Assembly (NCBI GenBank): GCA_965235115.1
Contig: OZ249442.1
Coordinates: 27,714,001 to 27,778,000, forward strand
Length of the DNA stretch: 64,000 nt
Direction of reading: 5' to 3'
Origin: Laetmonice hystrix
Taxonomy: Eukaryota
Made by a program: the position numbers. Below are positions 27,001 to 57,000 of the stretch, in pieces (positions within the stretch are counted from its first letter, which is position 1; each line of letters starts with the position of its first letter).

Positions 27001-30000
27001 CTTCCGATGGGGTCGATATAAAGTTTGTAGCGATGTTGATGGTTTTGGCGCGCTCTTCGATCACATGATCTCTGAGGCATGTAGCGTAACCTTTGGAGCA
27101 TGATTCCTGCTTTCTTTGTGTTAATAATTATCGACGGCCGAGACCAATCTGTTGTGTCCGTTTTGACCTTGGTTATATCGTTTACTCTCCCTGCAGACCT
27201 ACCCGCTACTCCAGAAAATCGCAGATTCCGAGCGAGGCCGACGTCTACCTTTCTGAAATCATCCGTGTTTCTCCGTACAATAGGGAATTCATGCGGATAA
27301 TTAAACTGGTCATTAAATAATTGAGACAATTCAATGCCAAGTATGAAGAATGTGAAGAAGACAGAAACCGTAAGAATGCTCCATAACGAATACATGTTCC
27401 AGAACGTGCTCAGGAAGTCCATTGGCAGTGTAAGCACCTTTAGTTAACAATACATGTTACAGAACGTGTTCAGGAAGTCCATTGGCAGTGTAAGCACCTT
27501 TAGTTAACAATCTCGGCATGTAACTGAGAATAAAGTTGTCTGATGATGGAGACGACTGTCCATTGCCTCCGGATGGCATTCTGAAATCACAAAACGTACG
27601 ATTGGATTAGGTGACACAGCGACAGGATACGGAATGATTTTAATTGTACTGGGACAAAAGTCGTCATACAGGAATCTTGTCACACGCCCAGAGATGCCTA
27701 CTTCTTCCTTGCGTGTCATATTTATGGGGAGCGTTAAATTATGGACAAAAATAATGGTTTGAATATGCACAGATGAAATAGTTTTTAACTTAAAAGTAAC
27801 GTCGCCTCGGCGATATCCAATGATCATGAAATCTCAAATAAAACGTCGTTGTGACGGTTGACAAAACGGTTGACAAAACGTCGTTGTGACGGTTAACAAA
27901 ACGGTTGACAAAACGTCGTTGTGACGGTTAACAAAACGGTTGACAAAACGTCGTTGTGACGATTGACAAAACGTCGTCGTGACGGTTGACAAAACGGTTG
28001 ACAAAACGTCGTTGTGACGGTTAACAAAACGGTTGCAGCTAAAGAGTTATTAAAGAGTGAGGGACCCATGTTTTGAGTCGCATACTTATCTTGATCAGCC
28101 ATGCATCGGTTGTCCCTTTCCAGGGCAGACACACACACAGACAGACAGACAGACAGACAGCTCACTACACCTCAACACGACATGCCAACCTTCGCCTCCT
28201 CCAAGGATTAACCGCAGTTCGTTCCCCTTGACCTACCTTTGGAATATCCTCTATATATGCCATAATATACACAAATATAACTCACAGAGATCACTTTGTC
28301 ATACGTCCGAACCAGAATAACCTTTATCTCCGAGTACTGAGAGTATTCACCGGTCGGACCTGTTCCTCACGGTATTTGGCACTCACTCTTGTCCGTTATG
28401 TGACAAGCAAATGTATATTTTTATATAAGTATAAAAGTATGGCGGTCTGCGGGTTGCCATGGTTTGGGAATGTCCTCAGTGTCTGTAACGAGCCATGAGA
28501 GCGGGCACGGTTCCCGACCACGGTAATTTCCAGCCAGCTTGGCCCGTACCTTCACGATGTCTACTGCTGGGCAGCCGTCGATCATAACCACTGAATATTC
28601 TCATTTCTTTCAGACTGACGAAACACAACTTACCTCTTTGTCTCCGGACAACTTCTGTGACTGGATGATAAAGGAGAGAGAAGACGACGTCTTCAGAAGG
28701 ACAGTGCTCAAGGTTTTAACCCAGGGTCATGCCTGCCTGTATACCTCTGTCCAGCCGGGCCTGCATGCCCCTCGCATGACAAAACCATCTAACCCGCCTT
28801 TCCACAGATTTGCAGAAAATTATATCCACAGGCAAATGAGCTGACCTACATTAGACAGACACCTGTTGTCCTGTCAAAAACACATAGTTTAGGTCGACAG
28901 GCATGCTTAAGTTCCTTTGGTGGGGGTCGCTCGCTCTGAAAATCTTGTTGGAGGGCGGGTGGGGGGGGGGGGGGGGGGTGACTGACAGAGGGTGACCTAC
29001 GAGCAATGTTATAGAATGTGTGCCTTCAGGTTCTAGGAGACACCGTCAAGGTCTGGTAGCCTACACTACCAAGTAACAAAATGTCTTTGTGTTAAAGGGG
29101 CATATTATAAGAAAACGTGAAAAATCGGTCTTTTATGAAATTTATGAAGCTCCCTTGCTGGCCATATGGACAAACGGCTCCAACCATCGTTTGCACGTGG
29201 CTTTTGTTGATCGATCGAGTGCAACTGCTGAATTGTTTACAACTAAGCGAAGCACGTGACTAAGCACATCCAAAAAGTGCACACGCAGGATGTGACACAG
29301 TATGCAATTACACGTGTTGATGGGAGGTTGTCTACCCAATTATGGCGGGAGATGTGCTATCGGGAGAAATCTATGCGTTTGGTCGTATAGAATCTACTTG
29401 TGCTGCATACGCAGTCACATTGTGACTATCAGTAAATAAAGGTGCAGGAATGCCATTGTAAGCAAGGTGGAAATTCATGGAATAATTTGTTAAAATAATT
29501 TTCCAGGCCTGGAAAGTCATGGAATTTTGCATCACGTCATGGAAAGTCATGGGATTTAAATGTGGGGGAAAGCTTTGCCTGATTTCGAAAATGGAAACTA
29601 TAAAGACCCCAATTTTGGTTACAAATTTGTTCATAAATTGTTAATAAAATCACAAAGATTAGATGGTATATATTCTTTTTTAATCATATTTTTATTTTTC
29701 GCCCAAGACATTTACAATGATACAAAACAAGACATTTACAATGATAAGAAACGACATTGACAATGTGCCTGTCTTTGATAGTAGATGGTGGTTGATCGAC
29801 AGGAGTCCTTCCCGCACACCAACGAGCGAAGCGACCTCTAGCGAGTAGGACGGTTCTTTCCGACTTTAGCGCCTCTAGCGGTCACGCACTGCATAGCCGC
29901 ATAGCGGCGCTAGGGGCATTATGCAAGACGTCAGATCTACATGTGTGAATGCAGTGGCGGATCCGGGGGGGGGGGCTTTGGGAGCTTAGCCCCCCCCCCC

Positions 30001-54000: not shown

Positions 54001-57000
54001 CTCCTTCCCACACGATTCACACAGATATAAACGCAAACCTTCATGCACCGAACTCATATGCTTGAAGAAATGTGTTCTGTTATACACATAAAAGTCACAA
54101 ATGGAACAGTGGAAGTATTTCACTCCCAAGTGGGACATTTCTATGTGCTTACGTACAATGCGTCTATTTCCAAAATATTGTTGACATATGGCACACTTCG
54201 TTTTCTCATGTGCATCAGACCTGTGCTGGTTGAAAGTTCTGTAAGTAGTAAAATGTTTGGAGCAATCCTGGCACTTGAAGTCTTGTCCCTCTACTTCAGC
54301 CCTATGCACTATTTGTAGGTGTTTACGAATATCTTCCCTAGGGAATCTCTGTCCACATATTCCACATGGGAGATAAACCTTGTTACGACTTGACACATCT
54401 CGTTTCATCACCTTGATGTGTTGACAGACAGGAGAACTCCTGTCCCACTCGTGCTGTCTCTCGAGGTGAAGGTGAATCTGGTATCGATGGATCACCTTGT
54501 ACGGACAGTTCAAACAACTAAACATTGTCTTTTCATGTTGTTCTTCCACGTGGAAGACAAACAATGACGGAATGGTACACATGAACGTACATTGGGTACA
54601 CACGTATTTGTCCCCTTTGTTTCCCCCTGGATTTGCTAATTTTCCAAGACCATGAGCCTCGGCTAGATGATTTGTGACTTCTTGAACTCTATCCTCAATC
54701 AATTCCTTCCACTCGTACCCACAGAAACTGCACTTCTTGACCTCTTGATCACCATGACAACTGAGGCTATGACCAACCATGGGCTGGTATTCATCAAACG
54801 TCTCCTCGCAAAAGTTACAAGGGAAAATCTCCATCTCAATGTTCTGTTTTGGTTCCTGAGGGAGTGGGGCATTGCTCTCAACCACCTCTTCTGCGAAATC
54901 AGCTTGGTTTCTCTTCACCTTCCATGAGAATCCAGGAAACCAACTAGGGTCATCGCCTTTCTCCTCTTCTCCTTCTTCTTCATCTTCATCATCTTCTTCT
55001 AGTTCTTCCTCTTCTTCTCCGTCTTCTTCTTCATTAACTGTTTCTTTTGATAGTGCAAGTTCACCATTAACTTCACTTGTTTGTGCTTCTTCTTTCACTT
55101 TGATCTCATCCAGTGGAAGCTGTATATCGAGAGACAACCTATCACTCCCCTTAGGTTGTATAATTATAGGTTCAGGATTATCTGGACTTGTTCCAGCCAG
55201 CTGCCCAGTCAGATGTTCTATAGGTGTCTCAGCATTACTGCGACTTTTCTTCCATCCGAATGTCGAGTGTACCATTACCATTTGTCCAGCCCCCTCTTCA
55301 TCACTGTAACATAAAAGAGTTGCACAAGACTTTGGGATACTTTAAATTAGAAAGAGGGGTACGTCAAGGGGACCCTTTATCCCCCTATTTTTTGATTTTA
55401 GCAATGGAGATTTTAGCACAGGTTGTTAGGGAGGAGAAAGCTATAAGGGGAGTAACACATTGGGGGAGACGGAAATGAAATTGACTCTCTATGCAGATGA
55501 CAATACTGGGTTAAAGTGAGTTTTATAAAAATATCGGATGTATCGCCTCACTATGGCTCATAATCAACAACAGACCTAGCACAACAATGTTATGGATACG
55601 ACAAAATGTTTTATCAGTCCTGTGGGATAAATTTAAGATCAGGTAAGCTTGAAATACGCAGATTCGTAGGAGATGGGGACACCGCTTCGACAAAACCCGG
55701 TGGCCGTAGGGTGATCGTTTACCTTTAAGTTTCGCACCCCCCCCCCCAGAAAACCTTCTCACATGCCTGGTCAACTGTCCAGGGTCATGTAGGTACAGTA
55801 AATGAGAACTTCAAACAAACCTCAGGTATATGTCGTTGTCATCATATAGGTCCACATCTTCTTCTTGTGGGTATGCTACTGTAAGACTGAAATGATAATT
55901 TCAAGGAGGGTTAGTGTGTACTGAACATTAGTAAAAAGGGTAAAATTACTCCACACTATTGTGGAGCGCCCACACAGATACTGGTCAGGCCATTTGTAAA
56001 ATAACGTTTCTAGTGTTTGCCTTAAAATCTGTATTTGCCCATATAGACAGCCATAAGTCAGGAATGCATTGAAACTTGTCGGGTTGAACTGACAACATAC
56101 AAGTATACTTATACACTCATACCTTAGATCCATGTCAGTCTTCTGTGCAACTTGCTCCTCATCCGATTCTAGTTTTACAACCCCTGAGAGCTCACCACTG
56201 TAATCATATGGCATAATCCTCAATATAACTTCATGGTGTACACTTAGGCAACCCCTGAGAGCTCACCACTGTAATCATATGGCATAACCCTCAATATAAC
56301 TTCATGATGTACCCGTAGTAGGCAACCCCTGAGAGCTCACCACTGTAATCATATGGCATAACCCTCAATATAACTTCATGATGTACCCGTAGTAGGCAAC
56401 CCCTGAGAGCTCACCACTGTAATCATATGGCATAACCCTCAATATAACTTCATGATGTACCCGTAGTAGACAACCCCTGAGAGCTCACCACTGTAATCAT
56501 ATGGCATAACCCTCAATATAACTTCATGATGTACCCGTAGTAGGCCTACTATATGTTTGTCAGGACAAATCCTCTGATATTTACCTATACAATTTGAAGG
56601 CCCCTTTGATTTCATTGAAGTTATTTACTTTAGAAACGTACAATTTACTATTCAACTGTTACATAATTCAGGACACAGATTGCACTGACTAACCTTGAAC
56701 TTGGCACAGTCGATATCGACTCTGCAAACTGAGGTTTGTCAAACTCCATCAATGCTGGCGCTGGAGTCGACGGTCCAGGTTGTGGAGATGGTGGTGCTGG
56801 AGTTGTTGATTTGGAAGTCTCTGGCTGAGGGGTGGGTGCAGATGTGAATGGTGACTTCCTTTTGGGCTGCTGGTTTTCTTCAAAGCTGAAAAAATTTGAA
56901 TAAAATTATCATGTCTGCAGAACTTCTACTCCACATCATAAAAAAGAAAGCAGGTCAGACAACCCCTCAGATAACACGCAAAACTCTTCTCTTTTTTTGT

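What the first reader, a model, noticed from the sequence alone, without database searches (positions are those of the whole stretch)
27391..56544. Minisatellites repeatedly born on splice sites, in all four genes
Seen: four unrelated arrays start at an exon edge and copy the splice signal into the intron. These are PIGT 31 bp x9 (acceptor), ZNF 71-74 bp x5 (acceptor), CARD-Kelch 77 bp x3.3 (donor) and FUT 60 bp x2 (putative acceptor plus ATG). In the three spliced cases, using a decoy site leads straight to a stop codon. Inference: either a mutational bias for tandem duplication at exon-intron junctions, or copy-number-variable tuning of unproductive (NMD) splicing.
Basis: partly seen in the sequence, partly recalled or inferred. 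Interest (0 to 1): 0.65.

Follow-up and report, generated by a model that had tools for sequence, protein, structure and literature searches.

The report
Minisatellites copying exon edges in neighbouring genes
Short tandem repeats in this invertebrate DNA have copied a splice site or a start codon of each of four neighbouring genes, a pattern already described in lancelets and a few human genes and probably a harmless by-product of a very repeat-rich genome.

Summary
The four arrays exist where stated and all lie on the minus strand, as do the four genes. I built the gene models exon by exon and never joined them.

- **PIGT:** the 31-bp x9.1 array carries the acceptor of exon 8 plus 4 exon bases.
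- **BTB-Kelch gene:** the 77-bp x3.3 array carries the donor of a 151-nt exon plus 12 exon bases.
- **Zinc-finger gene:** the 74-bp x5 array carries the acceptor of a 75-nt exon plus 20 exon bases.
- **FUT:** the 60-bp x2.1 array spans the start codon, not a demonstrable splice site.

Tandem arrays cover 23.8% of the window and introns are only 125-866 nt long. Enrichment at junctions is therefore only nominal. Three spanning arrays are observed against 0.28-0.66 expected (P 0.002-0.03). Counting all ten intronic tandem duplications gives P 0.11.

A decoy site leading to a stop codon is the ordinary fate of reading into any intron here (median 10 codons). The structures match amphioxus "mirage" minisatellites and human boundary VNTRs such as F7 intron 7. 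However, the FUT protein search gives no sign that this is a lancelet.

Verdict: new members of a known kind. A mutational bias is unproven, and nothing here supports NMD tuning.

The parts
47540..47819 (-). PIGT intron-7 minisatellite: 31 bp x 9.1, 98% matches. Each unit is the last 27 nt of the intron (short pyrimidine stretch, AG) plus the first 4 exon bases. It makes 8 intact decoy acceptors upstream of the real one.
47361..47543 (-). PIGT exon 8. The authentic acceptor AG is at 47545-47544. The exon starts in phase with the exon-7 donor at 47974.
   Evidence: Pfam Gpi16 positions 374-423; human PIG-T chain 7w72_T residues 333-387, E 6.6e-13; sequence read
46188..51093 (-). PIGT gene, 10 coding exons: 51093 or 51075-50901, 50034-49857, 49465-49225, 49042-48956, 48830-48743 (GC donor), 48503-48409, 48181-47974, 47543-47361, 46947-46701, 46512-46188.
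   Evidence: phases re-derived
35023..35278 (-). Kelch-gene intron minisatellite: 77 bp x 3.3, 97% matches. The unit is the last 12 exon bases plus the first 65 intron bases. Decoy donor GTs start at 35189 (weakened), 35112 and 35035 (both intact).
35267..35417 (-). Kelch-gene exon B (151 nt, CARD-like by eye only). Authentic donor GT at 35266-35265.
   Evidence: codon-usage score 0.233 per codon, reached by 2.4% of null segments
33267..34732 (-). BTB-Kelch exon C, from the acceptor at 34732 to the stop codon at 33267.
   Evidence: Pfam BTB 7.1e-10, Kelch_1 1.3e-30; acceptor choice
35756..35893 (-). Kelch-gene exon A from ATG 35893 to the donor after 35756 (CARD-like first half). Its 5' limit is unknown.
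56178..56545 (-). ZNF intron-1 minisatellite: 74 bp x 5.0, 97% matches. The unit is the last ~54 nt of the intron plus the first 20 exon bases. The four decoy acceptors have their first 'exon' base at 56268, 56342, 56416 and 56490.
56123..56197 (-). ZNF exon 2 (75 nt). Its phases fit exon 1 (ends 56694) and exon 3 (starts 55303). Skipping it would also keep the frame.
   Evidence: codon-usage score 0.286 per codon, reached by 0.8% of 3000 null segments. No homology evidence.
53773..55303 (-). ZNF exon 3 with the C2H2 fingers.
27384..27511 (-). FUT 60-bp x 2.1 duplication across the start codon. The authentic ATG is at 27422. The upstream copy has an ATG at 27482 opening a 12-codon frame that ends at 27444.
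26223..27422 (-). FUT (GT11) single coding exon.
   Evidence: Pfam Glyco_transf_11 4.7e-42; 51% identical to a 400-aa relative over 391 aligned positions

Best explanation
These are 'mirage'-type minisatellites. In each case a short local tandem duplication had a founding unit that straddled an exon edge: two acceptors, one donor and one start codon. The duplication was then amplified and homogenised by unequal exchange or replication slippage.

The outermost copy stays contiguous with the rest of the exon, so the gene keeps one intact site. The other copies sit in the intron, or in the leader for FUT, as decoys.

I take them to be largely neutral by-products of two properties of this genome: a very high rate of minisatellite birth (about a quarter of the window is tandem array) and very short introns. 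Together these give a random founding unit of 31-77 bp an 18-36% chance of crossing a junction.

Shown: the arrays, their local origin, their overlap with the exon edges, the intact decoy signals, and the stops that follow them.

Inferred: the exon models for the Kelch and ZNF genes, the duplication-then-amplification history, and that decoys are mostly silent or give transcripts removed by nonsense-mediated decay.
For: - Arrays and copy identity of 95-98%.
- Each unit occurs only in its own array in the window, so the arrays were born locally and not by a dispersed element.
- Exon overlap of 4, 12, 20 and 39 nt.
- PIGT exon 8 begins at a conserved protein position, so there the array copied a pre-existing acceptor.
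- Edge copies are the most diverged: the ZNF copy next to the exon is 90.5% identical against 98.6-100% for inner copies, and the PIGT outermost copy has an indel. This is the behaviour reported for amphioxus mirages.
- 40 merged arrays cover 15,233 of 64,000 bases.
- Per-array chance of crossing a junction is 0.36, 0.175 and 0.25.
- The units show no unusual DNA folding, z 0.16 to 1.64.
- The same structures are published for amphioxus Adh3, TnC, globins and PGBD5, and for human F7, 6-16, CBS, LMNB2 and PDGF, mostly with normal splicing.
Against: - Three junction-spanning arrays is more than simple random placement predicts: expected 0.28-0.66, P 0.002-0.029; joint 0.016. Pure neutrality without any bias is therefore not comfortably supported.
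- All 3 sizeable intronic arrays span a junction, while 0 of 7 tiny two-copy duplications do.
- The decoy donor nearest the true Kelch-gene donor carries its only two private substitutions inside the 9-nt donor motif. This hints that decoys are not entirely invisible to selection.
- No RNA, population or orthologue data could be consulted.
Confidence: 0.6

Rival explanations
1. Tandem duplications arise preferentially at exon-intron junctions in this genome. The cause could be something coupled to transcription, splicing or chromatin at exon edges. Mirages would then be a genome-wide class rather than accidents.
For: Nominal enrichment of about 4.5- to 10-fold in the window (3 observed against 0.28-0.66 expected). 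3 of 3 sizeable intronic arrays are at junctions. A fourth array sits on another functional edge, the FUT start codon. The amphioxus literature calls the pattern possibly general.
Against: P rises to 0.11 when all 10 intronic tandem duplications are counted. About 30 of the 40 arrays lie outside the four recognised genes, so array birth clearly does not need a junction. The units have no special secondary structure. This is one window, chosen after the pattern was seen. No mechanism is known; the globin paper says the mechanism is unclear.
Confidence: 0.2
2. The arrays are selected regulators. Copy number sets how often a decoy site is used, and decoy use gives a premature stop and decay, tuning the output of each gene.
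For: All intact decoys lead to a stop: PIGT 8 of 8 after one codon, ZNF 4 of 4 after 7-16 codons, Kelch gene after 10 codons. By coordinates these stops lie upstream of later junctions, so such transcripts would be eligible for decay (inference). Decoy signals are identical to the authentic ones in 8 of 8 (PIGT), 4 of 4 (ZNF) and 2 of 3 (Kelch) copies. Pseudo-site use is documented for human 6-16 and CBS.
Against: A nearby stop is the default for any intron read-through here (13 introns, median 10 codons). Unit lengths 31, 74 and 77 are not multiples of three, so a frameshift is automatic. Published mirages and F7 pseudo-sites are reported silent. The four genes share no function that would call for common tuning. 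The weakened proximal Kelch decoy suggests selection against use, not for it.
Confidence: 0.07
3. Part of the pattern is a gene-model artefact. ZNF exon 2 (and less likely the Kelch-gene donor) is not a real exon edge, so that array simply lies inside a long intron. Only PIGT and the FUT start codon would then be true cases.
For: ZNF exon 1 can join exon 3 directly in frame. No homologue or Pfam hit covers exon 2. Its acceptor scores poorly on a generic matrix, -1.4 bits.
Against: Exon 2 is open, phase-compatible on both sides and has a consensus-like donor. Its codon usage beats 99.2% of 3000 open non-coding segments of like length. Kelch-gene exon B scores at the 2.4% level and ends in GTAAGT. 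Acceptors of well-supported PIGT exons score just as low on that matrix (down to -3.3).
Confidence: 0.12

Closest known systems
Amphioxus 'mirage' minisatellites: Adh3 (Canestro et al. 2002, not held, known through citing papers), troponin C, globins BflGb6 and BflGb9 (PMC3087553, section 16 read), PGBD5 (PMC3902484, passage read)
   Same: [quoted passage not shown] Both 5' and 3' boundaries are affected. Adh3 unit sizes are 10-72 bp. Many units keep AG/GT signals. Inner copies are homogenised and edge copies diverge. Several unrelated genes are affected.
   Different: The FUT protein search gives no sign of a lancelet source (best relative 51%, unnamed; best named hits are molluscs at 36-38%; no Branchiostoma among the 120 listed). 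No RT-PCR, haplotype or instability data exist here. Four cases sit in four adjacent genes within 30 kb.
Human exon-boundary VNTRs with reiterated 5' pseudo-sites: F7 intron 7 (37 bp, last 4 bp of exon 7 plus 33 bp of intron), 6-16 (IFI6), CBS, LMNB2, PDGF (PMC1557585, abstract and introduction read)
   Same: The Kelch-gene array has the same build: the first unit spans the exon-intron boundary and identical donors are repeated downstream of the authentic, most upstream one.
   Different: Two of the arrays here reiterate acceptors, where the authentic site is the most downstream copy. The 5'-to-3' scanning rule shown for F7 does not explain how that copy would be chosen. Copy-number polymorphism is unknown here.
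Intron gain by tandem duplication of an AG|GT-containing segment (Rogers model; PMC3265369 seen as abstract in a listing; Zhuo et al. 2007 seen only as a reference entry and recalled)
   Same: A tandem duplication multiplies splice signals next to coding sequence and offers raw material for new exon-intron structure.
   Different: No new intron or exon can be shown here. The ZNF unit shows no homology to the exon-3 acceptor region beyond a few bases.
Intronic VNTRs that alter splicing, e.g. ABCA7 (PMC5954066, title and start of abstract seen in a listing only)
   Same: An intronic tandem array close to splice signals can influence splicing.
   Different: That is a disease association in human. 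No effect on splicing is shown for the arrays here.

Membership tests
mirage minisatellite (as described in PMC3087553) | Tandem array with minisatellite-size units | tested here: met
   Periods 31, 60, 74 and 77 bp; 2.1-9.1 copies
mirage minisatellite (as described in PMC3087553) | The unit spans an exon-intron boundary, so the exon edge and splice signal are reiterated | tested here: met
   PIGT acceptor +4 nt (homology-anchored), Kelch-gene donor +12 nt, ZNF acceptor +20 nt (model-based). Not met for FUT, whose array spans the start codon, not a shown junction.
mirage minisatellite (as described in PMC3087553) | Inner copies homogenised, boundary copies diverged | tested here: met
   ZNF edge copy 90.5% against 98.6-100% for inner copies; PIGT outermost copy has an indel and substitutions. 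The Kelch array is too short to judge.
mirage minisatellite (as described in PMC3087553) | Length instability or haplotype copy-number differences | not testable with these tools
   Only one haplotype of one window is available. The sequence collections that could hold others are closed or prokaryotic.
mirage minisatellite (as described in PMC3087553) | Regular splicing not disturbed | not testable with these tools
   No transcript data
mirage minisatellite (as described in PMC3087553) | Cephalochordate host (a circumstance of the description, not a structural criterion) | tested here: inconclusive
   The FUT search shows no Branchiostoma among the 120 listed hits and no relative above 51%.
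F7-type boundary VNTR with silent 5' pseudo-sites | First monomer spans the exon-intron boundary, with identical donors repeated downstream | tested here: met
   Kelch-gene array: authentic GT at 35266, decoys at 35189 (weakened), 35112 and 35035
F7-type boundary VNTR with silent 5' pseudo-sites | Only the most upstream donor is used | not testable with these tools
   No transcript data
Intron gain by tandem duplication (Rogers model) | A new intron is delimited by a duplicated donor and acceptor inside former exon sequence | tested here: not met
   In each case only one kind of site is multiplied and the exon sequence stays single-copy beyond 4-20 nt. There is no homology between the ZNF unit and the next acceptor region.
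Regulated unproductive splicing coupled to NMD | The alternative site gives a premature stop upstream of a later junction | tested here: met
   Stops come 1, 7-16 and 10 codons after decoy use. The same holds for ordinary intron read-through (median 10 codons), so the feature does not discriminate.
Regulated unproductive splicing coupled to NMD | Documented use and conservation of the alternative site | not testable with these tools
   No RNA data and no orthologous loci

The most novel reading that the evidence does not exclude
In this apparently non-cephalochordate invertebrate, minisatellite birth is biased towards exon edges. 'Mirages' would then be a genome-wide, recurrent class affecting on the order of one junction in ten, as 3 of 26 here. 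They would continually supply decoy splice sites, upstream start codons and raw material for intron sliding or gain. Selection would trim the most dangerous proximal decoys, as the weakened first Kelch-gene decoy hints.
Probability: 0.2. Interest if true: 0.65.

Novelty: new member of a known kind. Interest (0 to 1): 0.35.

Why it matters
If the clustering reflects a real bias, this genome would be a natural experiment on two questions. One is how the spliceosome picks one site out of up to nine identical ones, especially for acceptors, where the true site is the last copy. The other is how tandem duplication reshapes exon-intron structure. It would also extend 'mirages' beyond lancelets.

If the clustering is chance in a repeat-saturated genome with short introns, it is still a practical warning for gene prediction. 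Identical decoy sites next to true ones will mislead annotation pipelines in such genomes.

Tried and rejected
- **Close relatives, to fix the gene models.** A 63-aa PIGT exon query found nothing. The Kelch exon found only distant relatives, at most 37% identity. Models therefore rest on Pfam profile coordinates, one PDB match, phases and splice consensus.
- **PIGT exon 7 against PDB.** No match at E<=1.
- **CARD identity.** Neither CARD-like exon gives any Pfam family, even at E<=10. The joined domain was deliberately not searched.
- **Taxon names for PIGT relatives.** The full-length PIGT hits are unnamed and could include vertebrate sequences, so I did not use them.
- **ZNF exon 2 plus array as a copy of the exon-3 acceptor region.** Rejected: no alignment beyond a few bases.
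- **Hairpin-prone units that promote slippage.** Rejected: z-scores 0.16 to 1.64.
- **The four units as members of a dispersed repeat family.** Rejected within the window.
- **Other genes whose junctions might be hit.** Of 98 further open frames, only one weak reverse-transcriptase fragment matched Pfam.
- **Papers.** Canestro 2002 and Zhuo 2007 are not held.
- **Genome-wide tests in print.** Four literature searches returned case reports but no genome-wide test of repeat edges against splice sites.
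Full report
**What the window is.** The window has no N, 46% G+C overall and a CpG observed/expected ratio of 0.69. Tandem Repeats Finder returns 65 rows, which I merged into 40 arrays covering 15,233 of 64,000 bases, or 23.8%.

Pfam recognises four genes, all on the minus strand:
- a GT11 fucosyltransferase (ORF 26223-27443, E 4.7e-42)
- a BTB-Kelch gene (ORF 33267-34844)
- PIGT/Gpi16 (exons between 46188 and 51198)
- a C2H2 zinc-finger gene (ORF 53773-55341)

Of 98 further open frames of 75 codons or more, only one matched anything: a weak reverse-transcriptase fragment at 55224-55475.

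I do not take the window for human. The FUT protein's best relative is an unnamed 400-aa protein at 51% identity, and the best named hits are molluscs at 36-38%. Vertebrates lie at about 29-36%, and no Branchiostoma appears among the 120 hits listed. PIGT exon 8 is only a homologue of human PIG-T (E 6.6e-13).

PIGT resolves into ten coding exons. Their order follows the Gpi16 profile (positions 5-43, 46-110, 113-188, 189-217, 279-316, 374-423, 435-499, 490-561) and their phases agree throughout. One intron uses a GC donor.

For the Kelch gene I accept three exons:
- exon A, from ATG 35893 to the donor after 35756
- exon B, 35417-35267
- exon C, 34732-33267

For the zinc-finger gene I accept exon 1 ending at 56694, exon 2 at 56197-56123 and exon 3 from 55303. 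This gives 26 junctions that I treat as confident.

ZNF exon 2 is the weakest. It has no homology support, and exon 1 could join exon 3 in frame without it. However, its codon usage exceeds that of 99.2% of 3000 open non-coding segments of similar length. Exon B lies at the 2.4% level.

**The four arrays.** Read on the minus strand:

- *PIGT.* The unit ends in a short T-rich stretch and AG, followed by the first four bases of exon 8. Eight intact copies of this acceptor precede the real one, and a ninth, outermost copy is degenerate. Only one AG lies between the upstream in-frame stop and the conserved start of the exon. The real acceptor is therefore certain and is itself part of the last unit.
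- *Kelch gene.* The unit starts 12 nt before the end of exon B and carries the GTAAGT donor. Three further copies follow in the intron.
- *Zinc-finger gene.* The unit carries the acceptor and the first 20 nt of exon 2. Four decoys lie upstream.
- *FUT.* The 60-bp duplication covers the start codon. The upstream copy has its own ATG, opening a 12-codon frame that stops 21 nt before the true ATG. I found no convincing acceptor inside this unit. A better acceptor-like site lies about 160 nt upstream of the ATG, outside the array. This case is therefore a start-codon duplication, not a splice-site one.

Each unit occurs only in its own array, so all four arose locally and independently.

**Is it more than chance?** Three of 26 junctions are spanned by an array. 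I ran three nulls over the whole window:

| Null model | Expected | P(>=3) |
|---|---|---|
| 38 non-coding arrays placed at random, at most 25 nt of exon overlap | 0.28 | 0.002 |
| Same, overlap allowed up to one unit minus one base | 0.46 | 0.011 |
| Only a founding unit placed | 0.66 | 0.029 |

Each of these used 5000 trials. I dropped two arrays before the runs, 35949-36160 and 54965-55032, because they lie wholly inside the exon intervals I used in the model (for 35949-36160 the exon limit is tentative).

Conditioning each of the three large arrays on its own gene's introns, shortened to their pre-amplification length, gives a chance of crossing a junction of 0.36, 0.175 and 0.25. The joint value is 0.016.

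Against this, a lower TRF threshold reveals seven more tiny two-copy duplications in these introns, none at a junction. With all ten counted, the expectation is 1.25 and P(>=3) is 0.11. The window was also flagged after the pattern had been seen. My conclusion is that the enrichment is suggestive but not established.

**Stops after decoys.**
- PIGT decoys give a stop after one codon in 8 of 8.
- ZNF decoys give a stop after 7-16 codons in 4 of 4.
- Reading past the Kelch-gene donor gives a stop after 10 codons.

However, reading in frame into each of the 13 introns gives a stop after a median of 10 codons (mean 24.7). The unit lengths 31, 74 and 77 also shift the frame anyway. The stops are therefore no sign of design.

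**Signs of history and selection.** Inner copies are 98.6-100% identical, while the copies at the array edges are the most diverged. The amphioxus globin paper describes this pattern as exclusion of cluster boundaries from homogenisation.

The decoy donor nearest the true Kelch-gene donor differs from the consensus unit at just two private positions. Both lie inside the 9-nt donor motif and lower a generic matrix score from 4.3 to -2.0 bits; the two distal decoys are intact. With two substitutions this is only a hint that the most competitive decoy has been disabled. The units have no unusual single-strand DNA structure.

**What is known.**
- The introduction of PMC1557585 lists human genes in which the first monomer of a minisatellite spans an exon-intron boundary, so that the donor is reiterated (F7, 6-16, CBS, LMNB2, PDGF). 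Its abstract reports that in F7 only the most upstream site is used, through a 5'-to-3' scanning process.
- PMC3087553 (section 16 read) describes minisatellite-like duplications of both 5' and 3' intron/exon boundaries in amphioxus globin genes. It uses the name 'mirages', coined for Adh3, notes that the mechanism is unclear and that splicing appears normal, and proposes them as a route to intron gain.
- PMC3902484 (one passage read) adds PGBD5 and troponin C.
- I could not read Canestro 2002 or Zhuo 2007. Supplementary files, which hold the globin mirage alignments, are closed.
- Four literature searches returned no genome-wide test of repeat edges against splice sites.

**Verdict.** The arrays are genuine mirage-type minisatellites: new members of a known kind, possibly in a lineage where they have not been described. 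The most likely account is neutral local duplication and amplification in a repeat-saturated genome with short introns. The authentic site is preserved because the outer copy stays attached to the exon.

How the last of nine identical acceptors is chosen is not explained by the published donor-scanning rule and remains open. A junction-directed mutational bias keeps perhaps a one-in-five chance. Regulated NMD tuning has no support.

**Unchecked.**
- Transcript evidence.
- Copy-number polymorphism.
- The identity of the organism.

Noticed in passing
window 38778-38942, 36908-37002, 35756-35893 (minus strand): Three paralogous exons look like the first half of a death-fold/CARD domain. All end in phase 0 at the same motif position with good donors. 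Only one matching second-half exon (35267-35417) was seen. They could be alternative 5' exons or decayed tandem duplicates. Pfam gives no hit for the pieces.
   Followed up: partly
window 35949-36160 (minus strand): A 39-bp x5.6 array lies 56 nt upstream of the Kelch-gene ATG. Each unit carries a pyrimidine-rich CAG followed by ATG. The frame is open through the array with coding-like codon usage (0.216 per codon, 3% level), but repeats inflate that score. It may be coding, leader or a further acceptor mirage.
   Followed up: partly
window 35189-35201 (minus strand): The decoy donor nearest the true Kelch-gene donor has its only two private substitutions inside the 9-nt donor motif. Its score drops from 4.3 to -2.0 bits, while distal decoys are intact.
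   Followed up: yes
window 48741-48743 (minus strand): PIGT intron 5 appears to use a GC donor (AAG|GCAAGC). The join restores a conserved aspartate-tryptophan step by phase.
   Followed up: partly
window 51892-52009, 52367-52437, 62766-63927: A dispersed family of 42-47-bp tandem units is present in both orientations between and beyond the genes. The unit contains a perfect donor-like GGTAAGT.
   Followed up: no
window 32132-33110 and 30265-31747: Two long arrays (33 bp x30 and 48 bp x31) lie just downstream of the Kelch-gene stop codon at 33267. The first begins 157 nt after it, so it may lie in the 3' UTR.
   Followed up: no
window 55224-55475 (+): A reverse-transcriptase fragment (RVT_1, E 6.6e-4, below the curated cut-off). 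It lies mostly in ZNF intron 2 and runs about 80 nt into exon 3 on the opposite strand.
   Followed up: no
window 47605-47636 (minus strand): Two adjacent PIGT decoy units share an A-to-C change that removes the only TTAAT branch-point-like motif of the unit. The unit next to the exon keeps it.
   Followed up: no
window 1-26000: No Pfam-recognisable gene. The region holds 16 arrays, some very long (29 bp x71 at 14394-16364; 66 bp x25 at 3560-5190), with strong C-over-G strand skew.
   Followed up: no
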